Source: a virus (taxonomy: Duplodnaviria > Caudoviricetes). Taken from it: 64,000 bases of DNA. Within the stretch, counting starts at the first letter, position 1, and every line of letters starts with the position of its first letter. Under the pieces are notes generated by a model. That model made no database searches, was not told the origin of the DNA, and saw nothing but the letters and a program-made list of their open reading frames with translations. The translations under genes were made by a program, and so were the position numbers. The stretch covers positions 33,555 to 97,554 of IMG/VR virus record IMGVR_UViG_3300039452_000187, one strand, 5' to 3'. Positions 5,478-54,907 of this stretch are shown one piece after another.

Positions 5478-5519
5478 GTCACACTCAGACGTAGACTCAG
5501 CCCGAATCAATCGAACCGA

Positions 5520-6038: not shown

Positions 6039-6063
6039 AATCCATCCTCAATCGCTGCGAGCG

Positions 6064-29138: not shown

Positions 29139-32100
29139 TTAACTGTGCCGTGAATAAATGGACAAGAATTTTTGAGCCAGCAACTCCATCTCCGATGCCA
29201 ACCGCTCGTACTGCTTGGCGAGTTCGCTCCGTCTGAACGGTACTTCCTCCCCTTGCTCAACCCGATGTTGCTTCCATTCGCGCCGGTCCCGCTCGGCCGC
29301 CCCAAAGCCGGTCGTCGCCGGCACACGCTTCCTTCGTTCCTCTTCCCGCTGGTGCTCCGTCAACCGGTCGAACGCCTCGCTATACGCCTCATCTTCCGAC
29401 AGCGGTTCTGGGTTGCCGCCGAGCAACAAGTCATACAGCCGGCCGGGTAAATCGTCTTCGTGCCCGTTGAATTCCTCCGGATACTTCGCCGCCACGCTCT
29501 GGGCCACGTCGTCCAGCCCGCGCACCGCGTCCGCATCAATGCCCCGGCTGGCGCGGGCCTTCAAGGTGTCCAGGCTGCCGTACCCCTGGCTCTCCGACAG
29601 CTGCCGCGCATCCTTGAGGAGCCGCGTCCGGTCCTTCTTGAACTCGCGATCGTGGGCCAAAATCTCCGCCGCCAACTGGTGTAGGTGCTCGCCCTTCAGC
29701 CCCGACTTCCTTGCTTTCTTCGCCCAGATGGCCCGTTCATAAGCCCGGCTCTGGGCCAGCTGCTGCCGGTGCGACGGCTCCGGGGACTCGGCTTCCGACT
29801 CCGGCTCATCGAACACTTTGCCGGTATGGGCTACCACCGCCGGCCCGTGCCGTGGCTGGTGGAGGTTGACGTGCCCGGATTGCTGCAATTCGTGCAATGC
29901 CTCGTGCAAGGGCGAGCCCGGCTCGTGCTTGTCGCCGGTCAGGCGCTGCAAGGTGCCCACGTCAGCCTCGCCCGTGTCCAGGTGCTGTAGCAGTTGCTTT
30001 TTCAGGTGATGGTGCTGGGACGGCTTGGACCGTGCGTCGCCCTTCTCCGACAACGCAGCGATTTTCTTCCCGGTGAACTTAGGGTGCCCCTTGGCAATCC
30101 TTCCGTCCTTGCCGATACATACAGGACTGCCGCCGCTGCGCTTGCCGCCGTGGCCCTCGTGGGCACCGATCGTGATCCAGGTACACGAACCGGAACCACT
30201 GGACTTGCTCCGCTCATAACCCTCTGGATCTTCACGCCGCCCAAACCGGTCAAACAGGCCGCGATTGGGGACCGTGTTACCGCCGAAGAAGCCCGGCGCG
30301 GATACCGGGGGCTTAGGCTTGACGGGCACAGCTTCCCCTGGGTCCGGCTGTGCCTGGTCGGTCGGTTGTCGGTCGAACCACTCGGCGAAGCTCAGGCCGT
30401 GTTTCGGACCGCCCAGCGTGCGCGACTCGTTCCATTCCTTCTGCCACGAGGCACGAGGCTTGGTCACCGTGTAGCCGTGCGGAGACTGAATGGTCACAGG
30501 ATCATGCGGACCGGTCAGGTAAGAACCGACGTTCGCCAGCGCCCGTCCGAAGGACTTCACCCGCATCTTTCCACGATTGACCGGATCAATGACGGTCAGC
30601 CCTTCATCCGGCGCCAGAGATACCTGGCCGTCCTTGCCCACCTTCAGCCGGGCCAACTCGTCGGGGTGAACCCGGGCGCCGTTGGCCAGGGTGACGTAAT
30701 GCCGAATGGGCCGGCCGGTGGCGTCACTCAAGATAAAGGCATCCGGCGTGTACTCGTGGCCGTAAATGGGGTCGCCGTGGACGGTCTGCCCTTTCTCGAC
30801 CCTGGGAACTTTCACGTCGCGGTAGCGGTCACTCACCGAGAGCTTGCCCTGGCGTTGCAGCTGCAAGGCGGCCCGGAGATCGTCGCCGCGCACTTCGGTC
30901 TTGCCGGTGAGCGGTTGGCCAGCGTCCGGCGATGGAGCCTCGTTGAAGAGAGATGGTCGCTCGGTGGCTGGGGCTGCAGCCGGGGAAGCAACCGGAGTTG
31001 ATGCCGGCGCCTGAACATGCTGTGTCTGATCGGCCGGACCCACGGACCCCAGAGCCTTCCCAGACGCCACCGGCAGCAACTCCGGGCGCGGGTGATCCTC
31101 CGGCATCCTGGGCCAACCACTGAAGCGGTAGCGCTGCACCTGGTTGGCGTGCAGCAGCACCGCCCGAAACGCCTCCGGGGTCAGGCCAGTCTGCGGTGCG
31201 ATCTCGGCATAGAGATCGGCCAGCGGGATATTCGCACCCTTGGCCTGGAAGTGCCGGACCACGGCCGCATCGATGGCAGCCAAGGACCGGTTGAGCGTGT
31301 CAGTACCGGGCAGGTGGGCCAAGTCGCCGCGCGGGTCGGGGGTGCCGGTTTCCCGACCGTGAGCGATCGCCCGCAGCAGTTCGTTGGCTTGCCGGTTATG
31401 GTCGGCCGGATCAGTAGTTGCAGCCGTTGCTGGTTCGCCGCCCGCCAGCAGTTCCTGAACCTCCGCATCCGTTTTGCCGCGTGCCTCTTCCTTGTGAGTC
31501 AAACCGGCCAGCATGCGCCGCTGGGCCGGACTCATGGCGGCCACTTCGTCCGGACGGTAGCCGTGAGTCGCCGCCTTTGCTTTTGGTGGCGCCCACACCT
31601 TGCCCCCGCGTGGTCCCGTCCGCACCAGCGTCCAATCCGGGCTCGGCGGCGTCGGCCCGTGGTACTCGGCGGCGAACCGCTCCGGGACGTTGGCAGTTGG
31701 CGTCATGGTCCGTAAGGGCTGCGACGCGATCGCCCGTGAGGCGGCCGGCCGTCGCATGTCACCCTGGTAGAGGATCCACGCCTCCGTCGCTTCCTGGCGC
31801 TGCTCCGGCGTGCGGGCAGCGCCTAAGAAGTGTTTCTCAAGGATTTGCAACTGTTGCTCAGCTTTCCCGTCGCTCATCGCCTCCGAAGGGACATCGCTAT
31901 AGAACGCATGTTCAATCATGTGGAGATCAAGACCGGCATTGCGTTTGATCTCAGGGTAGGCGTCCTCGCCGCTACGCCAAAGGGTATGCGTGGCGTCGTT
32001 GATGTCGTCTTTCAGGTAGTCCAACACCTGCGCGGCAAAGATCCGTGCCCGGTTCTTGAGGCCCTCAAACTTCTCGACAGGCTTGCCGGTCAGTTGGGCC

Positions 32101-34904
32101 AACTCTGCCGCCGCGGCGGTCGCCGCCTGGAGGCAGGCGCCCTTGAACTCCGTGCTCAAGCCGCGCCAGACCTCCCGCAGTTGCTGCTGCTTTTGCCGCG
32201 GCTTCAGGTCGGACGTCAACAGGCCAATAATCTGCTCATTGGCCGCAGCGATCTGGCCCAGCGCGGGGTGAGTTTCAGCCGCATGTTTGTGCTCGTGTAC
32301 CCACTGCAAATCTCCCGTGGGCGGTCGGTGGTAGCCCGGCTCCGGCTCGTCGGCGCCCGCATGGTCATGCTCACCTGGCATCGTGTCGCGGTACACCTTG
32401 CGACCGGTGCGACTGCTCACCCAATAGCTGGCGCCGCGCGGCCCCGTCTGTCGCGTCCACTCATTCCCGCCTTCTCCAGCTGCAAACCGTGCCGGCCGCT
32501 CCCGCCGCTGCTGCCTTCCCTTTCCATCCACCGGCGGCATCGTCTCCACCCCCGGCAGCACAAACAACCGCCCTCCATCAATGGGTTCCTGGGCAATCCC
32601 CAGCACCCCGTGCATGTCCAGCCCTTCCACCCGCCCGCGCCACTCCACCGCCATCGGCCACTTGGCCCCAATCAACCCGGGCACTTTCTGTGTGGCCTTC
32701 TCTCCGAGATAGACCGTCAGGAAATTCTCGGCCGCATCCCCGTAGCCGCCCAGGCCCCACGATTCCACCCGGTCCGACTGGCTAATCCCGATGAGCCGCA
32801 TCTTCGAGTGCCGGCCGCGCTGGGCCAATCGCCGGATGAGCAGCCCGGCTTCGTTGGGCAGTTCGGCTACCGTGTCCGGGACCTCATCCCAAATAATCGT
32901 GACCGGCTCGAAGTCCGCGTGCCCTTCTTGCAGCGCGACCCCGCGCCGCTTCATCTCCCCCAGCAAGGCCGCGAGGGCCTGCTGGATCGGCTCGTAGTCG
33001 CCATCGGGGGCCACGGTCACCGTCGGCAAGCCGCCCCAATTGCCCGGCTCCCAGAGCGGGTCGATGACAACGAGGTGGTCGTTGGAGACCGTGGCCAGCG
33101 CCTGCGCGAGGACAGTTTTCCCCGATTTGGTCGGCCCTATGATTCTCAGGTGCGGGGCGGCCGTCAGGAGCAGCTGCAACCACTGCCGGGGCTCGGTCGG
33201 CGTGCCGGCCGCGTAACGCTCGGGTGCCTCGTCGCGGGACAGCTTCGCGGAGCCATCGGCCACGGTATGCGGCATGGGTGCGACACCGTTGGAATGCGCC
33301 GCTCCGTTGGGCGATTGCCCTGGCGGCTGCGCCTTCGGTGAACCGTTGGGTTGGCCGCCGCCCAGCATCCCGAGCAGCCCACCCATACCCCCACCGCCCG
33401 GTGCCCCGCCGCCTCCCCCTGGTTGCTGGGGCTGCTGCTGAGTCTGGGGATTCCTGAGCACATCATCCCCTTGTTGCGGCTTGCTCAACCCGGCAAACCC
33501 GAGCACTTCCTCCGTCTTGACCGGTGCCCCCATGCTGTACGCCTTGCTCGCCGCCTCCAATTGGTCCTTCGCGTTCGGCTTGTCGACCTCAAAGACCCAC
33601 TTGTGCCGATACTCTTCCCCCGGCCGGTTCCAGCGCTGGAGCACCGGCACCAGGTCCGTGGTCAGCGTGTCACCGAGGTTCTGGGCGTCATATTTCGTCA
33701 GTCGGTATTTGGTATCCGCCATGAACTCCGTGTCATGGGTCCCGAGCCCCGAGCTTTCCGAGCGACTACTGCCCGTCTGCCCGACGATATACCGCTCAAT
33801 GATCCCCTCGACATGCTCCTGCAGCTTCACCAGTGTTTCGGACCCTGACATGCTCATTTCGAGCTTATCCACCCCCGCCCCTTGCTTCTCGGAGCCGATG
33901 GGGCGCGGCCACACAATAACCGTGTTGTTCGACATTTCATTCGCGGCCTTGATCGCCGCGTTCTCGCTCTGCGGATTGCCGGCCTCGTAGTAGAAAATCA
34001 GGACCCCCTGGCCGACTTTTTGAATGAAGTCGCAGACGTTGCCGAGCCATTCTTTCCGCAACCAGTCCAGCCAGTAGATGCGGTGCCGCACCCCCACCCC
34101 CTGGACGCCGCCGGCCATTTCCCCCTCGAAGTAGTCCGCGTCGTCCATCTCGTGCTGATGGATCAGAAAGCGCTCACGCCAGTACGGGTCGCGGAGAACG
34201 AGGGCGGTGCCGCGATCGGTGAGAATGGACGTGGCCTTGGGCACGCCGCGAATCCAGGCCGGGTTGACCAGGATAAGCGGGGTGCCGTCCTCGATGTACT
34301 CCTTCTCACCGGGCAGGCGGAAGCGGTATTGGATCTTGTCGCCGTTAATCGGATAAAAGCCGTTGGCCGACAGCTGCCGCCGCCCCAGCCGTTGCTGCCA
34401 CACGTAGGATAGGCCGACCGCGTAGCGCCCATACCAAATCGCGTCCAGCAAACACATGAGCAGCTTCTGAAAATGGCTGACGCGCTTGATGAGGGCCGTG
34501 AGCGCCGCCGCCGAGTCCTTCTGTCGCTGGTCTTTCGCATCCTCCGGTTCCAGGTGCCAGCCGAGCTGGGCCGTCGCCAGTCGCCGCTCTTGGAGCAGCC
34601 CCATGAGGAACGCATCACGCCGCATGCCCAGAGCGTCTTCCCGCGACGTCCGCATCGCCTCGTCCCAGCGCCAGCTGTAGACGCGCATCGCCGAGCCGAA
34701 AATGCCGGTGTAGGTGAGCACATGGGGCAGGGGGAAGACTCGTTCGCCGGGGTCCGGGTGGCGGCCCGTGCCGTTGCTGCCGTTGGCCGCACCGAGCCGG
34801 TCGTTCAAGCTAATCGGCTCGCCGTCGGGGCCATAGAGAACGGGCTGGCCGGCGCGGTCGCGGTGGAGAGGGGGCAGGTCGGGCCGGTAGGGGTTCGTCG
34901 GCAT
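29139..34904 (-). CDS. Portal protein (Mu gp29/DUF935-like) fused to an FtsK/HerA-like P-loop ATPase and further domains (~1920 aa)
   Basis: LLDAIWYGRYA, IVGQT..SGLGT..H portal motifs; GPTKSGKT, LVVIDP, EMKRR, IIWDE, RGRHSKMRLIGISQ. Confidence 0.8.
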   Translation of the reverse strand: MPTNPYRPDLPPLHRDRAGQPVLYGPDGEPISLNDRLGAANGSNGTGRHPDPGERVFPLPHVLTYTGIFGSAMRVYSWRWDEAMRTSREDALGMRRDAFLMGLLQERRLATAQLGWHLEPEDAKDQRQKDSAAALTALIKRVSHFQKLLMCLLDAIWYGRYAVGLSYVWQQRLGRRQLSANGFYPINGDKIQYRFRLPGEKEYIEDGTPLILVNPAWIRGVPKATSILTDRGTALVLRDPYWRERFLIHQHEMDDADYFEGEMAGGVQGVGVRHRIYWLDWLRKEWLGNVCDFIQKVGQGVLIFYYEAGNPQSENAAIKAANEMSNNTVIVWPRPIGSEKQGAGVDKLEMSMSGSETLVKLQEHVEGIIERYIVGQTGSSRSESSGLGTHDTEFMADTKYRLTKYDAQNLGDTLTTDLVPVLQRWNRPGEEYRHKWVFEVDKPNAKDQLEAASKAYSMGAPVKTEEVLGFAGLSKPQQGDDVLRNPQTQQQPQQPGGGGGAPGGGGMGGLLGMLGGGQPNGSPKAQPPGQSPNGAAHSNGVAPMPHTVADGSAKLSRDEAPERYAAGTPTEPRQWLQLLLTAAPHLRIIGPTKSGKTVLAQALATVSNDHLVVIDPLWEPGNWGGLPTVTVAPDGDYEPIQQALAALLGEMKRRGVALQEGHADFEPVTIIWDEVPDTVAELPNEAGLLIRRLAQRGRHSKMRLIGISQSDRVESWGLGGYGDAAENFLTVYLGEKATQKVPGLIGAKWPMAVEWRGRVEGLDMHGVLGIAQEPIDGGRLFVLPGVETMPPVDGKGRQQRRERPARFAAGEGGNEWTRQTGPRGASYWVSSRTGRKVYRDTMPGEHDHAGADEPEPGYHRPPTGDLQWVHEHKHAAETHPALGQIAAANEQIIGLLTSDLKPRQKQQQLREVWRGLSTEFKGACLQAATAAAAELAQLTGKPVEKFEGLKNRARIFAAQVLDYLKDDINDATHTLWRSGEDAYPEIKRNAGLDLHMIEHAFYSDVPSEAMSDGKAEQQLQILEKHFLGAARTPEQRQEATEAWILYQGDMRRPAASRAIASQPLRTMTPTANVPERFAAEYHGPTPPSPDWTLVRTGPRGGKVWAPPKAKAATHGYRPDEVAAMSPAQRRMLAGLTHKEEARGKTDAEVQELLAGGEPATAATTDPADHNRQANELLRAIAHGRETGTPDPRGDLAHLPGTDTLNRSLAAIDAAVVRHFQAKGANIPLADLYAEIAPQTGLTPEAFRAVLLHANQVQRYRFSGWPRMPEDHPRPELLPVASGKALGSVGPADQTQHVQAPASTPVASPAAAPATERPSLFNEAPSPDAGQPLTGKTEVRGDDLRAALQLQRQGKLSVSDRYRDVKVPRVEKGQTVHGDPIYGHEYTPDAFILSDATGRPIRHYVTLANGARVHPDELARLKVGKDGQVSLAPDEGLTVIDPVNRGKMRVKSFGRALANVGSYLTGPHDPVTIQSPHGYTVTKPRASWQKEWNESRTLGGPKHGLSFAEWFDRQPTDQAQPDPGEAVPVKPKPPVSAPGFFGGNTVPNRGLFDRFGRREDPEGYERSKSSGSGSCTWITIGAHEGHGGKRSGGSPVCIGKDGRIAKGHPKFTGKKIAALSEKGDARSKPSQHHHLKKQLLQHLDTGEADVGTLQRLTGDKHEPGSPLHEALHELQQSGHVNLHQPRHGPAVVAHTGKVFDEPESEAESPEPSHRQQLAQSRAYERAIWAKKARKSGLKGEHLHQLAAEILAHDREFKKDRTRLLKDARQLSESQGYGSLDTLKARASRGIDADAVRGLDDVAQSVAAKYPEEFNGHEDDLPGRLYDLLLGGNPEPLSEDEAYSEAFDRLTEHQREEERRKRVPATTGFGAAERDRREWKQHRVEQGEEVPFRRSELAKQYERLASEMELLAQKFLSIYSRHS

Positions 34905-35040
34905 AGCAGGCCGTTCCAATAAAGGATCAGCCGCATGCCAGACCAAGCGGGAAGAGTGCGCGGCCGTGCCGGTGATGAGCCGGCAGCCGGGAAGTCAGGA
35001 TGCTTGGATTCTATCCGAGAAAGGGAAAGGTTGCGAAAGC

Positions 35041-37977: not shown

Positions 37978-38469
37978 TTAGTTTTTGCGATCCCTGCCCT
38001 GTCGTTCGCGAGCTTTGCTGTAGGCCGCCGCCGCCGCAATCTTCTTGGCGTGCTCTTCATTGTCGGGCCGCACCTGCCCAATCAGTCCGGTTTCCTTGTA
38101 GGACTGCATCATCTCCTGAATGTTTCGCTGAATCACCTGATCGCTGCTGCCTTGTTTGAGTGGCATGACCCGCCCCCAATTCACGAAGAGCCACAGTGGC
38201 ACCCGACCGTTGAGGGCACGCTGCGCCAGCCGATCCATCCGCTGCCGGAAAGACATCGCCGTGCGCTGCAGGCAACGATAGGCTCGCGGCTCATCCAGAC
38301 ACAGTTGCATCATCAACAACCTCTTGACCCGCTCGATCGTTCTGAAGTCCCGATCGGCATGCCAGGGCTTTGGTACCGGAGCTAGATCCTCAAAGCGATG
38401 AACGAGGATGTAACCCTGCGCCGGGGGCTGAGCAATCAAGGCTTCGGCATGAGGAGATTCTGTCATCAT
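37978..38469 (-). CDS. ANTAR-domain protein fused to a small phage MPLKxGSS...AYSKAR domain
   Basis: IERVKRLLMMQLCLDEPRAYRCLQRTAMSFRQRMDRLAQRAL fits the ANTAR consensus IERAKGILM...EEEAY..LR..AM..R..M..VA. Confidence 0.75.
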   Translation of the reverse strand: MMTESPHAEALIAQPPAQGYILVHRFEDLAPVPKPWHADRDFRTIERVKRLLMMQLCLDEPRAYRCLQRTAMSFRQRMDRLAQRALNGRVPLWLFVNWGRVMPLKQGSSDQVIQRNIQEMMQSYKETGLIGQVRPDNEEHAKKIAAAAAYSKARERQGRDRKN

Positions 38470-38490: not shown

Positions 38491-39090
38491 TTAACTAGCG
38501 ACGCGCCGCTTGCGTGGTCGTCGCACCCGCGCCACCGGCGGCGCTACGGCCACGTAGGCACCGGCGCCGGCGGCGCCGCCCAAGCGCTGGTAAGCGTAGC
38601 CGCCGGCCCGCAGCACCTGCCAGACGAACCGCCCCGGAGAGGCGGTATCCAGGAAGTCCAGGAACACCTGCTCCGGCACCGCGTAATACTCGTAGTGGGA
38701 GCCGTTGCGGAAGGTCACTTCGAGCACCGAGTCGCCGCGACGGTAGCGGATCGAGTCGACGTTCGACGAGTTCAAGTGGACCCAGCGGCCAGCGAGGGTA
38801 GTATCGTCGTTGGGGCTGGACCACCATTGGGGCCCGGGGAGCGTCTCCGGTTCCGTGGGCTCTGGGGTCACGGTCAGCGGCGTCCATTCGATCACCGGCT
38901 GAGTCGGCGCGGGCGGCTGCGCTTCGACAACCGGCGCCGGCTGGACGGTTGCCGGTTGGGGCAGCCGGTCGAACCACCGCGCCAGCCAGGACCGTAGCCG
39001 CGCGGAGCCGCGCACCGGCTTGCCACCGGCCGCAGCGCTCCCGCCGCCATCGCTGCCGATCCAGTTTCGTAGCCAGTTCCGCAGCCCCAT
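38491..39090 (-). CDS. KTSC-domain protein
   Basis: SSNVDSIRY...LEVTFRNGSHYEYYAVPEQVFLDFLDTASPGRF. Confidence 0.9.
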   Translation of the reverse strand: MGLRNWLRNWIGSDGGGSAAAGGKPVRGSARLRSWLARWFDRLPQPATVQPAPVVEAQPPAPTQPVIEWTPLTVTPEPTEPETLPGPQWWSSPNDDTTLAGRWVHLNSSNVDSIRYRRGDSVLEVTFRNGSHYEYYAVPEQVFLDFLDTASPGRFVWQVLRAGGYAYQRLGGAAGAGAYVAVAPPVARVRRPRKRRVAS

Positions 39091-40857: not shown

Positions 40858-41211
40858 TTACCCGGCATCAAATGGTTCCTTGGTTGCGGCCGTGTCTGCA
40901 GATCTTTTTGCCGCCTCTTCTTTTGTCTCCTGCAGCCACGTCGCCATGTCCGTCCCCTCTCCCTTGTCCTTGTCCTTGTCCTTAGTCGGCTCCTTGAACC
41001 GCTTGGTCCACTGCCAAATGCGCCGCAAAGGGATGTCCAGGATTCGTGCGACCAGCAGTTCCAGCTCCGCCAGGGCGGCGAGGTTGCTGCCGTCGAGGAA
41101 GCCGGCCACGGCGGCAGCGAGAGAGATTTCGGCGTCGGTGGGCTCTGGACGCTCAGCCAGGTGCGGCCGGAGCTGGGCGTAGGTGGTGGATTCGTGGGAG
41201 AGCGGGTTCAT
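40858..41211 (-). CDS. Hypothetical protein immediately downstream of the CRISPR array
   Basis: MNPLSHES..., 117 aa. Confidence 0.5.
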   Translation of the reverse strand: MNPLSHESTTYAQLRPHLAERPEPTDAEISLAAAVAGFLDGSNLAALAELELLVARILDIPLRRIWQWTKRFKEPTKDKDKDKGEGTDMATWLQETKEEAAKRSADTAATKEPFDAG

Positions 41212-41249: not shown

Positions 41250-41720
41250 GTCTCAGTAACCAACCCACTGAGCAGGGTCTTCCAACCTGGACGGGGGCAG
41301 CTTGCCGGCGGCCGGTTCGGGGTCTCAGTAACCAACCCACTGAGCAGGGTCTTCCAACTCATCTTCCTGCTGCTGCCGCTCCTGGGCCACTTTGTCTCAG
41401 TAACCAACCCACTGAGCAGGGTCTTCCAACGCGAATACTGCCACAAGAGAAATGAGCAAATCTGGTCGTCTCAGTAACCAACCCACTGAGCAGGGTCTTC
41501 CAACTTTCCATAACAGCTGCCGCGGCCGCGGATGGGCGGTCTCAGTAACCAACCCACTGAGCAGGGTCTTCCAACGGCCCATCCATGTGGCGTTCCCGCC
41601 CGGCGGCATCGTCTCAGTAACCAACCCACTGAGCAGGGTCTTCCAACGGATGGCAGAAGCGTCGACCAAAGGGCGATAACAAAGTCTCAGTAACCAACCC
41701 ACTGAGCAGGGTCTTCCAAC
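41250..41720 (-). CRISPR. CRISPR array: 7 identical 37-bp repeats and 6 spacers of 34-37 bp
   Basis: Repeat (minus strand) GTTGGAAGACCCTGCTCAGTGGGTTGGTTACTGAGAC; plus-strand starts at 41250, 41322, 41394, 41468, 41539, 41611, 41684; orientation inferred from the cas gene and the AGAC 3' end. Confidence 0.98.
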
Positions 41721-41912
41721 GGTCAACCTCTAAAACCGTGCTACCGCAAGCCGTTGAGTTGCTGTCCGCGAGAGGTTGACCAAAACAACTCGCCAAGGTA
41801 GCGGCAGCACCAACCAGGTTGTCAAAGATCGGTTCTAAATCAAGACTTACGCCACGCGAGAGCCATCACTGCACTATTCTGGCTGCAACCGCAGGTCAGT
41901 TCATGACTTCCA
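41721..41912 (-). promoter_or_regulatory. CRISPR leader
   Basis: Non-coding, between cas12 and array; 11-bp inverted repeat abutting the first repeat; GATCTTTGACAA motif. Confidence 0.7.
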
Positions 41913-43949
41913 TTAAAGGGCCACAGAACCGGCTCTTTCACCATCGCCGCGCTCGCGATACCACCGCAGCATGTTCAGACAGGCATTGCGGTCCTGGTCC
42001 CGCACTTCCTGACTACCACTGTAGCAGTGCTCTAATTGGGCCTTGTCCATGTCCTCGTCCACAACCTCCGTGGTCGCGCATTTGGTCGTCGTCTGGCTCG
42101 CCGGTGCCTTCGGCGCTTCACCTGCATTCTCGCAACAAAGTTGCACCAGCCGGCCAACGGCCGCACAGCGCCGATAGTCGAGAGGGATATACCCCTCCAC
42201 TTGATCGACCTCGGGAGTATCCTGTAAATCGCGCCAGTTGACATCCTCGGTGATGACTGCATGATAGCGGCGGCGCAATATAGCGGCCAAGTTGCGGTAC
42301 ACGTCATCGCGCCAGCGAATGGCTCCCTTGAGAACGAATGCCTGCCAGTCATACAAATGTTTATCCTGCTTGCGCCACCATTCCAGCACCGGGAAGATGG
42401 ACTGGTCCCCGGTGAAGCGGCGGAAACGCCACTTGAGGACCAACTTGGCCAACCGATCCTCGCTACGCCAGGAGGCCAGGGTTGCTGTCTCCTCTTCCAA
42501 CCACTTCGGCACGTCCACACCACGCTTGCGGTTGGCCAGGAGCGTCTCGATGGCCGCACAGCGTTCTTCCAGATCATTCCGCCAGCGGATGGCACTCTTC
42601 TCCATCTTGGCTCGCCTGTTTTGCGACACATCCTTGAGCTTGGGCAACCTCTGGAGCTTCCATTCCTGCTCCGCTGCCGACTTCCGCAGGTGCTGAAGTT
42701 CCCTGGCTAGGTCGGCAATCGGCAAGTCCTCCGCCTTGAGCCAAGTCACGAGTGTCGCATGATAGACGTTGAACGTCCGGTCCCGAATCTGTTGCAAGTC
42801 GTCATGCTTTTCCCAGCGTTTCAAGTCCGCGTGCGGCAAGATGAGTTCCCCTTCGGCGCCATCACTGCCAATCCAGTAGGCCACGCGCAGCCCGTTGGGC
42901 CGTAGCCGCCAACCAACATCGACGGCCACATATCCAGACTCGGCCTGATCCTCTTTGGTGAATCCATCCTCGCGCGAAATCACCAGTTGCAAGGCCCATT
43001 CATCATGAGTACCGATGCGCCGTTTGAGGCCGTAGCTCCATTTGATCTGCGCATCCGGTGGCAGGTCACGATGGAGCGTCACCACGAATTCCGCCCAGAT
43101 CGGTGCGCGCCCGTCCGAGCCAATCCGCACCGACGCGAGATAGCGCCGCACCGCCGCCTTACTCGGCTTTTCGCCTTCGCCCAGCGGTTTGGGCCGCAGC
43201 CGAAAGCGCGTATCCATTCCAGCGAAGGCATCGGCCACGCTCAGACCGCCCTGGAACTGGACGGCGATCTTCCCGTCCCCGCGGAAGCGCTTGAAGCGTG
43301 GCGGTTTGCCTTCGCGAATGCCCTTAAGAGACTGTTCCACGGTCAAATAGGTGCCCCAGAACACTCTACAAGCGGCCCGCAACTCCTTGAGCTTGGCATC
43401 GTGTTCATCCTCGACCCGGTTTATTTCGTCCTGAAATTCCGGTTTTTCGGAGAGGAGTCGCCGCCGCCGTCGATACTCCTGCCGCAGCGCCGCCAGGACT
43501 AACCGTTTCTTGCCCTGCCGCTTCACTTCGGCTTTGTACCAGTCGTGCAACTCCTTGACCCTGTCGTCATTTCCCCAGCACCGCGCCTTCGCTTCCTTGA
43601 GAGTGATCGTCAACCGCTTACGCGCTGCCCGCAAAGATTTAATCCGGTCCTTGTCGGCATCCGTGGTCACGCGCTTGCGTGCTTTGGCGTTCTTGGCCTT
43701 CGTTTCCCTGATCGCAGCCTCCAAAGCCTCAGTGGCCTCGGCTAGCCGCTGCTCCAAGGTTTCGACTTCCGGGAAATAGCGGCGCAAAGCCGCCAAAGAA
43801 GCTTCCCGTCGTTCGCGTTCGGCTGCCACCAGGTTATTTCTGTAGCGATTGGCGTCATAGATCTGCTGGCGAACCGCCTCTCCATTGATAGTCGGAGCCT
43901 TGGCACCATAGGAGTAAATTCGTGATGGCTTCGCGTCGTTGCCGTGCAT
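41913..43949 (-). CDS. cas12m: Type V CRISPR effector, Cas12m (V-U1/V-M)-like, 678 aa
   Basis: FWGTY, FRGDGKIAVQ, HRDLPPDA, VAVDVGWR (RuvC-I), W....LA.L...WR, LEWWRKQDKHL, ITED (RuvC-II), DQDRNA (RuvC-III); long N-terminal coiled coil; adjacent array. Confidence 0.85.
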   Translation of the reverse strand: MHGNDAKPSRIYSYGAKAPTINGEAVRQQIYDANRYRNNLVAAERERREASLAALRRYFPEVETLEQRLAEATEALEAAIRETKAKNAKARKRVTTDADKDRIKSLRAARKRLTITLKEAKARCWGNDDRVKELHDWYKAEVKRQGKKRLVLAALRQEYRRRRRLLSEKPEFQDEINRVEDEHDAKLKELRAACRVFWGTYLTVEQSLKGIREGKPPRFKRFRGDGKIAVQFQGGLSVADAFAGMDTRFRLRPKPLGEGEKPSKAAVRRYLASVRIGSDGRAPIWAEFVVTLHRDLPPDAQIKWSYGLKRRIGTHDEWALQLVISREDGFTKEDQAESGYVAVDVGWRLRPNGLRVAYWIGSDGAEGELILPHADLKRWEKHDDLQQIRDRTFNVYHATLVTWLKAEDLPIADLARELQHLRKSAAEQEWKLQRLPKLKDVSQNRRAKMEKSAIRWRNDLEERCAAIETLLANRKRGVDVPKWLEEETATLASWRSEDRLAKLVLKWRFRRFTGDQSIFPVLEWWRKQDKHLYDWQAFVLKGAIRWRDDVYRNLAAILRRRYHAVITEDVNWRDLQDTPEVDQVEGYIPLDYRRCAAVGRLVQLCCENAGEAPKAPASQTTTKCATTEVVDEDMDKAQLEHCYSGSQEVRDQDRNACLNMLRWYRERGDGERAGSVAL

Positions 43950-44303: not shown

Positions 44304-45791
44304 TCATCGCTTCACCCCGAACAGTCCCCTTCTCACTACCGCCGAGCCACTCCGGCCGTCCCCGCCCTCACGGTCCCGTCGCGTCCCGCTTTCGTTCGCG
44401 CCCAGCCCCGCCGCGTGCGCCTGCTGCCGGGCCGTCAGGCCAATCTGTTCCCGTTCCGGCAGCTGCGAAGGCGCCGTAAACGGCACCCGCCCCGAACCGT
44501 CCAAATGCGCGACCATGTACCTGAGCCCATCCATGCCGTGATTGTTCTTATCAATCGGCACTTCCCCCTTTTTCCGGTTGTTCGTCAGGTCCCACACGTA
44601 CCCGTCAAACTCCTCTTCCGTACACGTGGGCAGCTTCAATTCCACCAACCCGCTATCCCGCTCCACCAGCGAATCCCGGAGCAGGAACAACCGCCCGCGT
44701 CCGTCCCCAGCCTTCCGTAACCGTGCCGCCACATGCTGCACGCCCGCTTCAATCGCCTTGACCGCTGGCACCGTCGACCGCCCCAGGTACTTTTCCAACG
44801 TGGCCCGCCCCTCGGCGTCATGGTCGCAAATGACCGCCGCCGGCGCCGGCTCGTCCTGGCTCAGTTCCCGAATTAACTTCGCGTGGTCCTCCACGAGCCG
44901 CTGCGCATGGTAAATCTCGCGGTAGCGGAATAGCCGGTCGTCCTCATCCTTGGCCCACCACTGGCACACAAACGCATTGGTGAACCCAAAGTCGATCGAC
45001 AAGTACCGCGACCAAGCTGCCGGAATGTCGAACCTATCAATCAGGTGCACCGCCCGGTCCCACTCCTCGTACACCACCCCTTCCGCCTGGACCCAGCGGC
45101 CATAGCGGAGCCGCAACTTGCGCGGCCCCGTCATGTTGTCGAGCTTTTGCAGGTACTTCTCGCCCTCTGGCGTCCACCCCTGCTTCTCGGCATCCCAGAT
45201 GGTGGGATTGTCCTCGTGCCTGGTGTCGATGAGGCGCGTCTGCCCATTGTCGCAGCGCTTCTTGAGCCAGTGCGTGGGCGTGTCGGGGTTGGTGTCAGCG
45301 ATGAGTTGCTGGTAGGGCATCCGGCCATTCCGCAAGGGCCGGGTCAGCAGTTCCCACTCGTTCTCGGTCAGCTCAATCGCTTCCTGGACATAGACGATAT
45401 CGTATTCCGTGGACAGGGTGCGCGAGGGCTTGTCGAGGCCGCCGACGACCAGCGTCGAGCCATTGGGGTAGTGGTAGGCTTGCCGTAGCCGCCGCTGCCC
45501 CCCGGACGAGAGGGCCGGGTGCCCCACCGGCAGCACCTTTTGCTCAAAGGTCACCAGGCCGGATTCAGTGAGCGAGTCGCGGGTCTTGCGGACAATCAGC
45601 CCACGCATCCCCGGGTACTTGGTGGCGCACGCATGGAGCTTTTCCAGGCACGTCCGCGACTTGCCGGTGCCGGCCGGCCCCGAGAGGAGCAGTTCGCCGT
45701 TGCGATCGCGAAGCACTTTCAGCACCGTCGGGTTCATGAGGAACGGCCGGCGGTCGGGGTGCAAATCGGCTTCGGGGACGGTGACCTGCAT
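44304..45791 (-). CDS. terL: Terminase large subunit
   Basis: GPAGTGKS Walker A, VYVQEA Walker B, DTNP, SIDFGF nuclease motif, NHGMDGLRY. Confidence 0.95.
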   Translation of the reverse strand: MQVTVPEADLHPDRRPFLMNPTVLKVLRDRNGELLLSGPAGTGKSRTCLEKLHACATKYPGMRGLIVRKTRDSLTESGLVTFEQKVLPVGHPALSSGGQRRLRQAYHYPNGSTLVVGGLDKPSRTLSTEYDIVYVQEAIELTENEWELLTRPLRNGRMPYQQLIADTNPDTPTHWLKKRCDNGQTRLIDTRHEDNPTIWDAEKQGWTPEGEKYLQKLDNMTGPRKLRLRYGRWVQAEGVVYEEWDRAVHLIDRFDIPAAWSRYLSIDFGFTNAFVCQWWAKDEDDRLFRYREIYHAQRLVEDHAKLIRELSQDEPAPAAVICDHDAEGRATLEKYLGRSTVPAVKAIEAGVQHVAARLRKAGDGRGRLFLLRDSLVERDSGLVELKLPTCTEEEFDGYVWDLTNNRKKGEVPIDKNNHGMDGLRYMVAHLDGSGRVPFTAPSQLPEREQIGLTARQQAHAAGLGANESGTRRDREGGDGRSGSAVVRRGLFGVKR

Positions 45792-45815: not shown

Positions 45816-46352
45816 TTAGACTTCGGCGGCCGGGTCGCCGCCGATATAGACCTTGACAATCTCTCCACTGTGCTCGTGCTTCTCGGTCCAGTCGCCCTTC
45901 TCCTGAGCCAACTGCTTTTGGTACTCGCGGTACTCCTTGAGCAGCCCCGTATCCACTTCATACTCTTCCACGCGTACGAAGTTGTCGCCGCCGCCCGTGC
46001 CCTTGATGGTCCGCACCTGAATACCCTGGTCGCCTCCCGGTGCCTTCTGGTGCTCGGGATCCTTGCCGCGGGCCTCAATCACCGCTTCCATCCGGGCCAG
46101 CATTCGCTTCAAAGATTCGATCCGGCGGGCGCGCCTGGCCAGCCCGCGGCTAATGATCCTCTCTTCGATTTCGGCCACCAACTCTTCCACTTTTTGGCTG
46201 AACTCAGGGACCGCCAACCATCGCCGCAGCGTCTTCTCGTCAATGTCGAGTTGCTCCGCGATCTTCCGGTTGGAAAGCTTGTCCTCCGCCAGCAGTTCAG
46301 CCGCCTGCAGCTTGATGCTATTCCATTTGAAACTATGGACATTTGTGGACAT
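45816..46352 (-). CDS. terS: Terminase small subunit (HTH)
   Basis: SNRKIAEQLDIDEKTLRRW; C-terminal EKHEHSGE; directly upstream of terL. Confidence 0.85.
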   Translation of the reverse strand: MSTNVHSFKWNSIKLQAAELLAEDKLSNRKIAEQLDIDEKTLRRWLAVPEFSQKVEELVAEIEERIISRGLARRARRIESLKRMLARMEAVIEARGKDPEHQKAPGGDQGIQVRTIKGTGGGDNFVRVEEYEVDTGLLKEYREYQKQLAQEKGDWTEKHEHSGEIVKVYIGGDPAAEV

Positions 46353-46719
46353 TTTCTGACTGTACACCCGCTCCCGCATTCGCCCCAAAAAACTGCCGAT
46401 GGGTCGGCAGCCCTTTCAGTTCCAACCATCGCGCCAGCACCCGCCCGACCCGTCGGAACAACTCACGCCCGCGACTGGCCCGCCGCTCGTAAATCGCCAG
46501 CAAGTGCGGCAACTCCACCGGCGAAGGCCGCACCACCCCGGTGCTGGTGTGAACCTCTCCCAACTGCCCCAGCACCACGCTGCACGCCGCACAGGCGGAT
46601 GACCCGCGCGGCACCGGCACCTTGCGACAAATCTTGCAAAACCGCCGCGTGTCCTTGTGACCCTGCTTGGGGCCGTCTTGTCCCGGCCGCCGCTCTTTTG
46701 TATGGTCGAAGCCAGACAT
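46333..46719 (-). CDS. Hypothetical zinc-finger protein
   Basis: CKIC...CAAC; YERRASRGRELF. Confidence 0.45.
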   Translation of the reverse strand: MSGFDHTKERRPGQDGPKQGHKDTRRFCKICRKVPVPRGSSACAACSVVLGQLGEVHTSTGVVRPSPVELPHLLAIYERRASRGRELFRRVGRVLARWLELKGLPTHRQFFGANAGAGVQSENVHKCP

Positions 46720-51504: not shown

Positions 51505-53670
51505 CTAATTCTGCTGGTGTCGCGGCTGGCGGCAGTTTCTGAAGACATGGGCGAACCACGAGCCGACATTGCCGCCGACACTGTTCGACTGGTCGCCACT
51601 CTGTTCGTTGCTGCCGTCTTCGTATCCCTCTTCCTCGTACACACGAGCCTGGCACATCGCCGGATCGGCTTCCTGCAGCATGAGTTGCCGGTACAGTCCT
51701 CGCACCTGTCGCGCCCCCCAGGTGACAGGGTGCCGGAAATACAGGATGCGTTGGAAGTAGCCACTCGGCGCCGCACCCAGGCGACGGTTGCAGCCCACAG
51801 CCGTAGCCGGTTCAGTTGCCGTTGCTGCTGTCGCCTCTGTCGCCTCTGTTCCTTCGCCGGTTGGTTGCCCTGGTGGCCCGCTCGCTGCTGCTGGCGGATT
51901 GCGCGTCCGCAAACCCCCGCCAAATCCTCTTTCAGGATCCACCGTGACCCCATTCGCCTCGATGATCTCCTGAATCGTCCCATCCTCGAGATCTTGCGGC
52001 AGATGCTTCCCTTCCTCCCACAGGTTCGTTTGCGCCCGCCGCTCGGGTGGCAGTGCCCAGCGCTTGCCGGCCCAGACGAAAGCACCATAGCCGTGGTGGC
52101 GGTCAATCGCCTGGCACAGGATCTCCACGGCCTCGTCCGCCGTAATCTCCTTGGTGCCCTCCGGGAAGCGGTCCACCGGCAAGCCAGCGATGACGCAGCC
52201 GACCACGATCAAGCCGGCTTCGGGCAGCCGCGCGACGCGGGCAAAGTTGCCGGCGAACCAGCGCGAGCCGTTGCGTTGATACTCCCAGGTGTCGCACTCG
52301 AAGGCGAAGAACCGTCCGTGGGAGTGCTTGACGCGCGAGCGGAAATTCTCCTTCCAGCGCTCCTTGCGCATGCGGATGCAGTGGACACAGGTTTTGCAGC
52401 GGTGCTCGCAGATACGCGAATGTCGCTGGTTCTTCGCGGGCTGGAAGAACTTCTTGGGGCGCAGGCAGCGGAGGTCAACCACATCGTACTTCAGGTAGCG
52501 GAGGCGGGCTTCCAGTTCGTCCTGTTGTTGGCGGTCCGCGGCCAGTTGGCGCTGCAGGGCGGCGTCGTAGAAACGGCCTGGCCTCTCCGGTGTCATGAGG
52601 GTCGCGCCGTCTGAGCCAGGAGGCGATATCAGCTGCCCGGAACAGTCGGGGCTATCGAGCAGGGCTGCGGCGAAGGCACGCCCGGCCGCTGCCAGGTCAC
52701 TCGACCATTCCAGGTGGGACGGCAGGTTGGGAATGGCCGCACAGAGCCAGGCCCGCACGTCCTTGGCGCCAGCCGGCGGGAAGGCGACGCGCACCGGCCG
52801 GTTCAGCAGTAGGGCCAAGCGCTGGGCCGTGTGCTGGGCGCCGTCGCGGCCGGGCCAGGTGCCGTCTGGCTTCTGGTCGTTCTCCCCCAGGACGATGATC
52901 TCTCGTACCGGTGCTGGTCCGTCGTTTCCAGCCTCAACCCAGCGCTCGGCGTGGTCCTCGAGGGCAGCGTTGAGCAGTGGCGCCAGCAGGTCGACGCCGC
53001 CCGTGTTGGACGGGCGGCCGATCGCGGACAGTCCTATTGCCAGACAGCTCAGGACGTCGCTGGCCCCTTCGGGAAGCAGAATCGGGCCGGCCTGGTCCAG
53101 GTCCCATTGAGTGGCATAACATAGGCCGCGCGCGCCGTGCGAGCGCTTCGCGTTGTCCAGGTAGCGGAAGGCGTAGCCGATGACCGAGCCGGACTCGTTT
53201 TTCTCCTCGCTGACAAAGCAGCTGCGGCCGTAGGTGTCGTTGGCGAGAAAGCCGACGCGGAGCTTGAGAAACACCCATTCGGGCAGGCCCAGCATCGCGG
53301 ACAGCTTCTGCGCCGGGTCGTCGCCCACAGCCAAGGGCCGGCTTTCTTCGGCCACGTAATGGAGCAGTGAGCGCGGCAGCTCATCCAGGGTCGCCGGCCG
53401 CTTCGGCTTCTTCTTCTCTTGCTGGCTCCGCTTCGGGGCCGCCGGCTCCTCGGTGTGAAAGGGCGCCGGTCCGAGCGCGGCATCAACCAGGTACAGGCCC
53501 CAGATGTCGCCGCCTACCGGGCCGCTGGTGCGGAGGAAGTTGAAGCCGTCCACGTCCTCGCCGCGGCGGTAGTAGCAGAAGTAGAGGTCGTCGGCGTGGC
53601 GGCAGTTGCCGTTGCGGCCGCCGCAAATGGCGCAGGGATGGTACGCACTACTGTATCGGAAAGATGACAT
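51505..53670 (-). CDS. DNA primase-like replication protein (Zn finger + TOPRIM + C-terminal Cys-rich domain)
   Basis: CAICG..C..C; LPEGASD, AIGRP, LGEND, PPAGAKDVRAW. Confidence 0.85.
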   Translation of the reverse strand: MSSFRYSSAYHPCAICGGRNGNCRHADDLYFCYYRRGEDVDGFNFLRTSGPVGGDIWGLYLVDAALGPAPFHTEEPAAPKRSQQEKKKPKRPATLDELPRSLLHYVAEESRPLAVGDDPAQKLSAMLGLPEWVFLKLRVGFLANDTYGRSCFVSEEKNESGSVIGYAFRYLDNAKRSHGARGLCYATQWDLDQAGPILLPEGASDVLSCLAIGLSAIGRPSNTGGVDLLAPLLNAALEDHAERWVEAGNDGPAPVREIIVLGENDQKPDGTWPGRDGAQHTAQRLALLLNRPVRVAFPPAGAKDVRAWLCAAIPNLPSHLEWSSDLAAAGRAFAAALLDSPDCSGQLISPPGSDGATLMTPERPGRFYDAALQRQLAADRQQQDELEARLRYLKYDVVDLRCLRPKKFFQPAKNQRHSRICEHRCKTCVHCIRMRKERWKENFRSRVKHSHGRFFAFECDTWEYQRNGSRWFAGNFARVARLPEAGLIVVGCVIAGLPVDRFPEGTKEITADEAVEILCQAIDRHHGYGAFVWAGKRWALPPERRAQTNLWEEGKHLPQDLEDGTIQEIIEANGVTVDPERGFGGGLRTRNPPAAASGPPGQPTGEGTEATEATAATATEPATAVGCNRRLGAAPSGYFQRILYFRHPVTWGARQVRGLYRQLMLQEADPAMCQARVYEEEGYEDGSNEQSGDQSNSVGGNVGSWFAHVFRNCRQPRHQQN

Positions 53671-54199: not shown

Positions 54200-54907
54200 C
54201 TACTCACTGAACAGTTGCCGCTGCGCGTCCCGTATCCGCACCGAGCGCGGGCACACCGCCGCCAGTCGCCGAATTTCCCGGTCCTGGCATTTGAGCAACG
54301 GTGCTGTGGCACCGGTCCACCAGGTTTCCAAACCAGCCGCGTTGCGCCGCCCCAGCAGCCACCCCGCCGCCCGGTAAATCGTGCCGCGATGCAGGCGCGT
54401 GTCACAGTAGGAGAGCACCGCGCGAATCGCGTAAGGCTCGTCGACGAACACCGGCGGATGGAGCCGGAGGTAGTCGAAACCGACGCGGGCTAGGGCCAGG
54501 CGAATGACGGTTGACGCCAGGGTGGACCGAAAGTGGCCCTGGCGGTCGACGAAGCCAGGCAAAAAGTCCGGCCGGTACAGGTCGCCGCCTGGCTGGACTG
54601 ACGAGCATAGCCACACGCGCGACAGATTCAGAACTTCCCAGCGGTCGTAGGCGGCGCGGCCGGCGGCTGCGTCCTGCCGGCTGCCGTAGGTCAAGGTGCC
54701 GTGGAAGCAGCGGGTGGATTCGGGGCGGCCGAACCAGAGGCAGCCGATGTAACCGTGCGTGGCCAGACGCACGACGTAGCACAGGGGCCGGCTGCGGCGG
54801 TCGGGCGGCTTGTGGAGGTAGTGGTGCTCAGAAACAGCGTCGCTGGCCCACCCGAGCGTGGCAGGGTCCTGAGCAACTTCCAGGAACAATTCACAACTGT
54901 TGCTCAT
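54200..54907 (-). CDS. Mom-like (GNAT-fold) DNA modification protein
   Basis: EHHYLH, GCLWFGRP, NLSRVW, LSYCD..HRGTIYRAAGW. Confidence 0.75.
   Translation of the reverse strand: MSNSCELFLEVAQDPATLGWASDAVSEHHYLHKPPDRRSRPLCYVVRLATHGYIGCLWFGRPESTRCFHGTLTYGSRQDAAAGRAAYDRWEVLNLSRVWLCSSVQPGGDLYRPDFLPGFVDRQGHFRSTLASTVIRLALARVGFDYLRLHPPVFVDEPYAIRAVLSYCDTRLHRGTIYRAAGWLLGRRNAAGLETWWTGATAPLLKCQDREIRRLAAVCPRSVRIRDAQRQLFSE

What the first reader, a model, noticed from the sequence alone, without database searches (positions are those of the whole stretch)
41287..41683. Spacers look like fragments of a diverged homolog of this phage's own primase gene
Seen by manual translation. Spacer 41576-41610 reads (R)PIHVAFPPGGI versus primase RPVRVAFPPAGA (aa 291-302, nt 52765-52799; 23/35 nt, many wobble mismatches). 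Spacer 41359-41393 (reverse) reads KVAQERQQQED versus QLAADRQQQDE (aa 375-385, nt 52514-52548; 23/35 nt). Weaker: 41431-41467 (C)EYCHKRNEQIW versus CVHCIRMRKERW (same CxxC-x7-W spacing); 41287-41321 ..SCPRP versus RCLRP; 41505-41538 ..RGRGWA versus AGKRWA. None is a functional self-match. Inference: the array is focused on the replication gene of competing relatives, i.e. CRISPR-based superinfection exclusion, possibly a replication or transcription roadblock. Only the first match is persuasive alone; short by-eye matches can be chance.
Basis: partly seen in the sequence, partly recalled or inferred. Interest (0 to 1): 0.85.

Follow-up and report, generated by a model that had tools for sequence, protein, structure and literature searches.

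The report
Phage Cas12m array, primase-like spacers
A complete 97.5-kb temperate phage carries its own DNA-binding CRISPR protein (Cas12m) and a six-spacer array, and one spacer clearly, two more probably, look like pieces of a distant relative of the phage's own primase gene, which suggests the phage silences rival mobile elements at their replication gene, although no real target sequence could be found.

Summary
The array is real: seven identical 37-nt repeats and six spacers at 41250-41720. It lies 192 nt downstream, on the minus strand, of a 678-aa Cas12m-like gene (41913-43949; PDB Cas12m E 1.3e-53). The genome has no cas1, cas2 or cas4.

At the protein level only S5 (p 0.0003) and S2 (p 0.012) stand out against the phage's own primase. 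Against a family profile built without that primase:
- S5 fits the conserved TOPRIM motif (p about 0.001).
- S1 fits the CPxP motif (p 0.003-0.02).
- S3 fits CxxC-x7-W (p 0.01-0.05).
- S2, S4 and S6 do not fit.
- The whole array gives Fisher p 1.4e-4, the most extreme of 12 phage Cas12m arrays.

No protospacer was found in IMG/VR, JGI metagenomes, INPHARED, PLSDB or 401 Planctomycetota genomes. Targets, PAM and "competing relatives" therefore remain inferred. The same primase family is also common in integrase-primase integrative elements, which are an equally likely target.

Observation partly confirmed, interpretation partly supported. This scan noted primase-matching spacers in binding-only phage type V arrays on two other genomes; I did not check those notes.

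The parts
41250..41720 (-). CRISPR array: seven identical 37-nt repeats and six spacers of 34-37 nt. It is read on the minus strand, where the repeat ends in a hairpin plus AC directly before the spacer.
   Evidence: The orientation follows from the same repeat architecture downstream of cas12m in other viral loci, from the fold, and from compensatory stem changes in the pLM6 plasmid repeat.
41913..43949 (-). cas12m-like effector gene (P0001, 678 aa). RuvC triad D-E-D by alignment, only 2 of 4 zinc-ribbon cysteines kept, and two insertions of about 45 and 70 aa.
   Evidence: phmmer against PDB: 23vw_A Cas12m E 1.3e-53, Cas12m2 8hhl 7e-9. Alignment with 17 relatives. No Pfam or PHROG hit.
41721..41912 (-). 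192-nt leader between the cas12m stop codon and the first (leader-proximal) repeat. It holds a weak terminator-like hairpin at 41806-41791.
   Evidence: No sigma-70-like promoter was seen here.
41576..41610 (+). Spacer S5. The plus-strand frame reads PIHVAFPPGGI and fits the conserved RPVxxAfPPxGxKDxR strand of the TOPRIM primase domain.
   Evidence: Own primase p 0.0003. Profiles without the own primase: 20.9 bits, 0/300 shuffles; 18.7 bits, p 0.001 by shuffle and 0.0016 by genomic 35-mers. Its best nucleotide matches in independent Planctomycetota loci fall on the homologous site (26/35, 25/35, 24/35).
41287..41321 (-). Spacer S1. The minus-strand frame reads PNRPPASCPRP and fits the CPxP motif that opens the primase C-terminal domain.
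   Evidence: 17.8 bits, p 0.0015 and 0.0028. With a second profile: 13.6 bits, p 0.003 and 0.020, and 2 of 85 control spacers score as high. Not significant against the own primase.
41431..41467 (+). Spacer S3. The plus-strand frame reads EYCHKRNEQIW and fits the C-x7-W part of the family's CxxC-x7-W motif.
   Evidence: 13.5 bits; p 0.005-0.011 by shuffle and 0.021-0.055 by genomic 35-mers. The best single protein match is KYCEKKKREHW in P0069. An equally scoring antisense reading exists in one profile.
41359..41393 (-). Spacer S2. KVAQERQQQED resembles the own primase at aa 375-385 in a non-conserved linker. Low-complexity CAG run.
   Evidence: p 0.012 against the own primase; not significant against the family profiles.
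41505..41538 (.). Spacer S4. No supported origin.
   Evidence: not significant. No exact 21-mer in IMG/VR.
41648..41683 (.). Spacer S6, leader-proximal and presumably the newest. No supported origin.
   Evidence: not significant. No exact 22-mer in IMG/VR.
51505..53670 (-). The phage's own primase gene (P0002, 721 aa). N-terminal zinc ribbon plus DnaG/T7 gp4-type TOPRIM primase fold, then a C-terminal domain with CPxP, CxxC and W motifs that has no Pfam family.
   Evidence: Model with pLDDT 77. Foldseek PDB: E. coli DnaG core 1eqn E 2.7e-7, T7 gp4 primase 1nui. 59 and 495 relatives.
52765..52799 (-). Own-primase site homologous to S5 (aa 291-302). 12 of 35 bases differ from the spacer, so it is not a target.

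Best explanation
This is the guide array of a phage-borne type V-M (Cas12m) CRISPR system in a complete, probably temperate, 97.5-kb phage of a Planctomycetota host.

Shown here: the cas12m gene, a 192-nt leader and the array lie in one orientation on the minus strand, and the genome has no adaptation genes.

Inferred: the array is transcribed and cut into crRNAs that carry the repeat's 3' hairpin followed by a spacer.

Shown statistically: at least one spacer (S5), and probably three (S5, S1, S3), are fragments of a gene of the same DnaG-like primase family as the phage's own primase. They come from one or more diverged members and fall on the family's most conserved motifs.

Inferred from the experimentally studied Cas12m proteins: the crRNA-Cas12m complexes bind, without cutting, the primase gene of incoming or resident mobile elements that carry such a gene. 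These could be related phages, or the integrase-primase integrative elements in which this family is frequent. Binding would block the gene's transcription and/or fork passage and so shut down the rival's replication. The phage's own primase differs at 12 of 35 positions, five of them within the ten PAM-proximal bases if the array is read on the minus strand, so it escapes.

The origin of S2, S4 and S6 is unknown.
For: Array anatomy.

Effector identity: PDB Cas12m E 1.3e-53, and the D-E-D alignment.

Repeat family and orientation: shared with 30 IMG/VR Cas12m loci and with plasmid pLM6, whose repeat carries compensatory stem changes. Fold.

No Cas1, Cas2 or Cas4. Complete DTR virus record, TerL, portal-like segment, integrase.

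Primase identity by fold.

Spacer-to-family statistics, using profiles that exclude the own primase:
- S5: 20.9 bits, 0/300 shuffles; 18.7 bits, p 0.001 and 0.0016.
- S1: p 0.0015 and 0.0028; 0.003 and 0.020.
- S3: p 0.005-0.055.
- S1 and S5 exceed all 85 control spacers from other phage Cas12m arrays.
- Array-level Fisher p 1.4e-4, the most extreme of 12 arrays; the next is 0.037.

S5's best nucleotide matches in 64 independent Planctomycetota loci sit at the homologous motif. One family member, P0069, is the best match of 205 proteins for S3 and also has PIHV at the S5 site.

Cas12m mechanism: PMC11013384, PMC10442227.
Against: - The primase was singled out post hoc. Genome-wide, S5's match has p about 0.06, and by summed score the primase ORF ranks only 9th of 460 ORFs.
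- S5's profile score is not independent of its match to the own primase, because the motif is conserved.
- S1's significance drops from 0.003 to 0.02 with a second profile. S3 has an equally scoring antisense reading in one profile.
- High chance scores tend to land on the same Cys/Trp-rich motifs, as seen in control spacers.
- Three of six spacers show nothing.
- Whether this D-E-D protein with a degenerate zinc ribbon only binds is unknown.
Confidence: 0.6

Rival explanations
1. The array is a real Cas12m array, but the primase resemblance is chance. The spacers come from unsampled mobile elements or other genes with no relation to primases.
For: DNA identity of 23/35 equals the shuffle expectation. 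Genome-wide peptide p is only 0.06 for S5. The primase ORF ranks 9th of 460 on summed score. S2, S4 and S6 are not significant. Control spacers also give their best chance hits on the CPxP, CxxC and W motifs. No protospacer was found in any primase homologue.
Against: Two of six spacers exceed all 85 control spacers, and the array-level Fisher p is 1.4e-4. S1 and S3 were tested after S5 had fixed the hypothesis and are jointly at about p 0.004. Matches fall on conserved columns and differences on variable columns.
Confidence: 0.27
2. The spacers do come from primase-family genes, but the targets are small integrase-primase integrative elements (satellite-like or ICE-like) resident in the host, not competing related phages. 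This would be a phage-versus-parasite conflict.
For: The two-domain primase family sits next to a tyrosine integrase on small elements: L008/L009, and L224 in a Singulisphaera MAG, with integrase, HTH_17 and primase. P0069 on L224 is the best joint match for S5 and S3. Precedent: Lalka phage Cas12r spacers mostly target integrative elements encoding an integrase and a primase-polymerase (bioRxiv 10.64898/2026.04.20.719267).
Against: The family also occurs in phage-like replication modules syntenic with this phage (L010, L011). P0069 matches the spacers at only 21-22 of 35-37 nt. No protospacer was found.
Confidence: 0.3
3. The crRNAs regulate the phage's own primase gene through partial complementarity (autoregulation by a binding-only effector).
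For: The effector family binds without cutting. S5 and S2 have their best in-gene matches in the own primase.
Against: 12 of 35 mismatches are scattered along the site, including about five in the ten PAM-proximal positions. Cas12m reads a heteroduplex of about 17-18 bp (PMC11013384, PMC10442227). S1 and S3 fit the family consensus better than they fit the own gene.
Confidence: 0.03
4. The locus is a recently captured or decaying cassette. Its spacers were acquired in a bacterial or plasmid donor and have no present role for the phage.
For: No adaptation genes. A near-identical repeat on a Methylomonas megaplasmid. Degenerate zinc ribbon. No targets found.
Against: All seven repeats are identical and the gene is intact. 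The cassette has the same compact gene-then-array layout as about 20 other viral loci.
Confidence: 0.1

Closest known systems
Type V-M CRISPR-Cas12m (MmCas12m2, GoCas12m, MsCas12m; PDB 8hhl, 8pm4, 23vw; PMC10442227, PMC11013384)
   Same: The effector is homologous over its full length. The repeat is 36-37 nt with a 3' stem next to the spacer, the array lies directly downstream of the gene, and there is no adaptation module. The RuvC triad is one of the described variants (D-E-D).
   Different: About 80-100 aa longer, with two insertions. Two of the four zinc-ribbon cysteines are lost. It is encoded by a phage. PAM, binding and absence of cleavage are untested.
Myxophage MV-1 MvCas12m locus (bioRxiv 10.64898/2026.09.14.751636)
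   Same: A phage-encoded Cas12m with D-E-D next to a small array, without cas1, cas2 or cas4, and with no protospacers found.
   Different: Different host phylum. Here a protein-level origin can be proposed for some spacers. The preprint's 'first phage Cas12m' is one of at least 30 IMG/VR contigs with such genes.
Virus-borne mini-CRISPR arrays in interviral conflict (Medvedeva et al. 2019, cited from memory) and huge-phage arrays (Al-Shayeb et al. 2020, cited from memory)
   Same: A short array in a viral genome, presumed to exclude other mobile elements while sparing the carrier.
   Different: Those spacers match close relatives almost perfectly. Here no match exists, and the inferred source is only a distant homologue, about 60% identical to the carrier's own gene at the matched sites.
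Lalka phage Cas12r-CRISPR (bioRxiv 10.64898/2026.04.20.719267)
   Same: A phage type V system placed among the packaging and structural genes. Its spacers are aimed at mobile elements defined by an integrase and a primase gene.
   Different: Cas12r cuts DNA (RuvC-dependent), real protospacers and a PAM are known, and the protospacers are not reported to concentrate in the primase gene.

Membership tests
Type V-M CRISPR-Cas12m | Effector homologous to characterised Cas12m proteins | tested here: met
   phmmer against PDB: 23vw_A E 1.3e-53 in three stretches covering aa 11-666; Cas12m2 8hhl 7e-9.
Type V-M CRISPR-Cas12m | RuvC-like domain with a D-E-D, H-D-D or N-D-D triad | tested here: met
   VAVDVGW, ITEDV and DQDRNA align with the triad columns of relatives, which show D/N/H and E/D/K variation.
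Type V-M CRISPR-Cas12m | Adjacent array of about 36-nt repeats with a 3' stem, read in the gene's direction | tested here: met
Type V-M CRISPR-Cas12m | C-terminal zinc ribbon (CxxC...CxxC) | tested here: not met
   Only 2 of the 4 cysteines are kept. No PF07282 hit, unlike most relatives.
Type V-M CRISPR-Cas12m | PAM-dependent dsDNA binding without cleavage | not testable with these tools
   Needs biochemistry. No protospacers, so no PAM can be derived.
Virus-borne anti-virus mini-arrays | Array lies in a bona fide viral genome | tested here: met
   DTR record with CheckV completeness 100%; TerL; portal-like segment.
Virus-borne anti-virus mini-arrays | Spacers match related viruses or other mobile elements at near identity | tested here: not met
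   No such match in IMG/VR, JGI metagenomes, INPHARED, PLSDB or 401 Planctomycetota genomes.
DnaG/T7 gp4-type TOPRIM primase (for P0002) | Zinc ribbon plus TOPRIM RNA-polymerase fold | tested here: met
   Foldseek: 1eqn E 2.7e-7, 1nui 1.6e-6, probability 1.0. EGxxD and GENDxK motifs are conserved. Pfam Toprim_3 is only weak, in 3 of 9 relatives.

The most novel reading that the evidence does not exclude
Binding-only type V arrays carried by phages are selected to hold guides against the most conserved motifs of a replication-gene family (here a DnaG-like primase). This would give broad, escape-resistant exclusion of a whole class of rivals, both related phages and integrase-primase satellites, without DNA breaks in the lysogen. 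Notes from this scan on two other genomes (e1-5847042, e1-5801208, unchecked) report primase-matching spacers in phage Cas12m and dead-Cas12f arrays, which would make this a recurrent strategy.
Probability: 0.3. Interest if true: 0.7.

Novelty: new member of a known kind. Interest (0 to 1): 0.5.

Why it matters
If the reading holds, a temperate phage uses a non-cutting CRISPR effector to switch off the replication gene of rival elements. That would be a gentle form of superinfection or satellite exclusion that avoids chromosome breaks in its lysogen.

It also shows a practical route for 'dark' spacers. When no protospacer exists in any database, six-frame spacer peptides scored against protein-family profiles, with real-spacer and real-genome controls, can still point to the target gene.

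The finding adds to evidence that phage-borne Cas12m is common: 30 IMG/VR contigs were found here, whereas a 2026 preprint calls one case the first.

Tried and rejected
Searches that found nothing useful:
- Exact repeat: 0 hits in IMG/VR and in GTDB genomes.
- Whole array against INPHARED phages: chance hits only. Against PLSDB: only a related array on pLM6 and chance hits.
- Close primase relatives in IMG/VR: none. In INPHARED by tblastn: none.
- S5 wobble-tolerant 11-aa pattern: 0 in IMG/VR and 0 in JGI metagenomes.
- S5 8-aa pattern: one chance hit in IMG/VR and 101 metagenome hits, none inside a primase-family ORF.
- 21- and 22-mers of S6, S4 and S2: 0 in IMG/VR.
- All spacers against the held relatives (L008-L011, L012-L041, L144-L207, L224): no protospacer.
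- 401 Planctomycetota genomes: the best hits, 30/35 (S1) and 29/35 (S2), lie in a Laminin_G and a VWA chromosomal gene. I read these as chance.
- Primase C-terminal region alone by word search: nothing.
- Rfam on the array: nothing.
- Profile of the primase family against PDB sequences: nothing.

Ideas rejected:
- P0001 as the portal protein: rejected, because it is Cas12m-like and a portal-like segment lies in the 1935-aa ORF.
- A shared GGATGG at the ends of S4, S5 and S6 as a PAM or acquisition mark: the positions and strands are inconsistent, and I did not pursue it.

Full report
WHAT IS THERE. The stretch 41250-41720 holds seven identical copies of a 37-nt repeat. The window is bases 33555-97554 of a 97,554-bp IMG/VR virus record with direct terminal repeats, estimated complete. 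The repeat occurs nowhere else in that record.

All large genes nearby run on the minus strand. They include:
- a large terminase at 44304-45791;
- a terminase-small-like HTH protein at 45816-46388;
- two DNA methyltransferases, a RecD2-like helicase and two ERCC4 nucleases;
- a ParB-like protein;
- a 1935-aa protein with a portal-like segment;
- outside the window, a tyrosine integrase.

So this is a phage, probably temperate.

THE EFFECTOR. The ORF directly upstream of the array on the minus strand (41913-43949, 678 aa, P0001) has no Pfam or PHROG hit. It matches a solved Cas12m at E 1.3e-53 over nearly its whole length, and Cas12m2 at 7e-9.
- Aligned with 17 relatives, it has Asp, Glu and Asp at the three RuvC positions. 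It keeps only two of the four zinc-ribbon cysteines. It carries two insertions of about 45 and 70 residues.
- The genome has no Cas1, Cas2 or Cas4.
- Thirty IMG/VR contigs encode relatives. Most have an array just downstream with 36-nt repeats ending in a stem and GAC.
- The window's repeat read on the minus strand has the same shape, with its stem ending 2 nt before the spacer.
- A Methylomonas koyamae megaplasmid has a nearly identical repeat with compensatory changes in that stem, next to a 589-aa Cas12m-like gene.

Hence the array is read on the minus strand. S6 is leader-proximal, and crRNA spacers are the reverse complement of the plus-strand sequence.

CHECK OF THE OBSERVATION. Significance depends on the level of comparison:
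- DNA: 23/35 is what shuffled spacers obtain as their best match in this genome (means 21.9-23.0).
- Six-frame peptide scan of the whole genome: S5's top hit is indeed the primase site, but with p about 0.06. S2 has p about 0.09.
- The primase reading frame alone: S5 p 0.0003 and S2 p 0.012.
- Across 460 ORFs, the primase ranks 9th by summed score. That rank is carried by S5 (z 6.3) and S2 (z 3.2).

INDEPENDENT TEST WITH THE GENE FAMILY. The 721-aa protein (P0002) is a true primase by fold. A model with mean pLDDT 77 matches the E. coli DnaG catalytic core (E 2.7e-7) and the T7 gp4 primase fragment. It has 59 relatives by word search. Its C-terminal domain, which has no Pfam family, has 495 relatives by profile search. 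I built profiles from these relatives without the phage's own protein and slid the six-frame spacer peptides along them.
- S5 (PIHVAFPPGGI) lands on the conserved RPVxxAfPPxGxKDxR strand. Scores: 20.9 bits with 0 of 300 shuffles reaching it; 18.7 bits with p 0.001 by shuffle and 0.0016 against 13,520 real 35-mers of the same genome.
- S1, read on the other strand (PNRPPASCPRP), lands on the CPxP motif that opens the C-terminal domain. Scores: 17.8 bits, p 0.0015 and 0.0028. With a second, better-aligned profile: 13.6 bits, p 0.003 and 0.020.
- S3 (EYCHKRNEQIW) lands on the C-x7-W part of the CxxC-x7-W motif at 13.5 bits, with p 0.005-0.011 by shuffle and 0.021-0.055 by genomic 35-mers. In one profile an antisense reading scores the same.
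- S2, S4 and S6 are not significant.

As a real-spacer control, 85 spacers from other phage Cas12m arrays reach at most 17.1 bits and show no excess of low p-values. At the array level the window's array gives Fisher p 1.4e-4, the most extreme of 12 arrays; the next is 0.037. The differences between S5 and the own primase fall on variable columns and the identities on conserved ones.

In 64 independent Planctomycetota loci that encode relatives, S5's best nucleotide matches (26, 25 and 24 of 35) sit at the homologous site on the coding strand. One family member, P0069, gives the best S3 match of 205 proteins and also has PIHV at the S5 site.

CAVEATS. The primase was singled out post hoc. S5's profile score is not independent of its match to the own gene, because the motif is conserved. 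The fresh evidence is therefore S1 and S3, jointly about p 0.004. Chance hits also tend to land on the Cys- and Trp-rich motifs. I put about 85% on S5 coming from a primase-family gene, and about 60% on two or more spacers doing so.

SEARCH FOR REAL TARGETS. None was found.
- The exact repeat, the whole array, wobble-tolerant S5 patterns and 21- and 22-mers of S2, S4 and S6 gave nothing in IMG/VR, JGI metagenomes, INPHARED or PLSDB beyond chance.
- In 401 Planctomycetota genomes the best hits were 30/35 and 29/35, inside chromosomal Laminin_G and VWA genes. That is about what this search space gives by chance.
- No PAM, target strand rule or clustering can therefore be stated.

WHO IS THE TARGET. 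The family is overwhelmingly planctomycetal: Gemmataceae, Phycisphaerae, Fimbriiglobus, Singulisphaera and others. This points to the host phylum. The family occurs in two settings. One is phage-like replication modules syntenic with this phage, with RecD2, ERCC4 and then the primase (L010, L011). The other is small elements where it sits next to a tyrosine integrase (L008/L009; L224 with integrase, HTH_17 and primase). Integrative, possibly satellite-like elements are another, with a precedent in Lalka phages, whose Cas12r spacers target integrase plus primase-polymerase elements (bioRxiv 10.64898/2026.04.20.719267).

MECHANISM. Shown: a phage-borne gene-leader-array cassette of the Cas12m family without adaptation genes, and spacers that do not match the carrier. 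Inferred from published Cas12m work (PMC11013384, PMC10442227): PAM-dependent DNA binding without cleavage, which blocks transcription and replication. Whether this D-E-D protein with a degenerate zinc ribbon cuts is open; tested D-E-D orthologues did not cut. S5 and S3 would give crRNAs antisense to the primase message, and S1 a sense one, so both DNA strands would be addressed. Self-regulation of the own primase is unlikely, because 12 of 35 mismatches lie at the S5 site, about five of them in the ten PAM-proximal positions.

COMPARISON AND NOVELTY. Phage Cas12m was reported in a 2026 preprint as a first case, with no targets found (bioRxiv 10.64898/2026.09.14.751636). Here 30 IMG/VR contigs carry such genes. 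Virus-borne arrays used against other mobile elements are a known kind. What is new here is modest: another member in a Planctomycetota phage, and a protein-level inference that its guides derive from conserved motifs of a primase family. Notes from this scan on two other genomes (e1-5847042, e1-5801208, not checked by me) describe primase-matching spacers in binding-only phage type V arrays. They are a lead that the theme may recur, not evidence.

Noticed in passing
L012-L041 (IMG/VR contigs): Thirty viral contigs encode Cas12m-like proteins, and about 20 have an array directly downstream with 36-nt repeats ending ...CTG(C/A)GAC. This is at odds with a 2026 preprint's claim of the first phage Cas12m.
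   Followed up: partly
L222:4859-5183 and 5192-6961 (Methylomonas koyamae plasmid pLM6): The repeat is almost identical to the window's, with compensatory changes in the stem (CTCATT...AATGAG versus CTCAGT...ACTGAG). It lies next to a 589-aa 'zinc ribbon domain-containing protein' that is 23% identical to P0001.
   Followed up: partly
window 51505-52500 (primase aa 392-562) and P0061-P0206: The primase C-terminal domain (CPxP, CxxC, W motifs) has 495 relatives but no Pfam family and no sequence match among PDB chains. It is often next to a tyrosine integrase on small planctomycetal elements (L008, L224).
   Followed up: partly
window 22831-29127 and 29139-34946, minus strand: Two adjacent giant ORFs of 2098 and 1935 aa. 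The second has a portal-like segment (phrog_113) at aa 307-538. The rest is unassigned.
   Followed up: no
L012:7817-8079: In this viral Cas12m array the first 8 nt after each repeat are identical (GTCGAATA), so either the repeat is 44 nt or the spacers share a start.
   Followed up: no
window 37978-38469 and 38491-39090, minus strand: An ANTAR-domain (RNA-binding antiterminator type) protein and a KTSC-domain protein are encoded a few genes downstream of the array.
   Followed up: no
window 40858-41211, minus strand; 40962-40983: A 117-aa ORF of unknown family starts 38 nt after the last repeat and may be co-transcribed with the array. It contains a CCTTGT x3.7 tandem that encodes a KDKDKD run.
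   Followed up: no
window 41505-41683: GGATGG occurs at an end of three spacers: the S4 3' end, the S5 5' end as its complement, and the S6 5' end. Positions and strands are inconsistent and the meaning is unknown.
   Followed up: no
window 54200-54907, minus strand: A Mom-family (DNA modification) hit lies beside two ERCC4 nucleases and two methyltransferases. The phage may modify its DNA, which could bear on CRISPR targeting.
   Followed up: no
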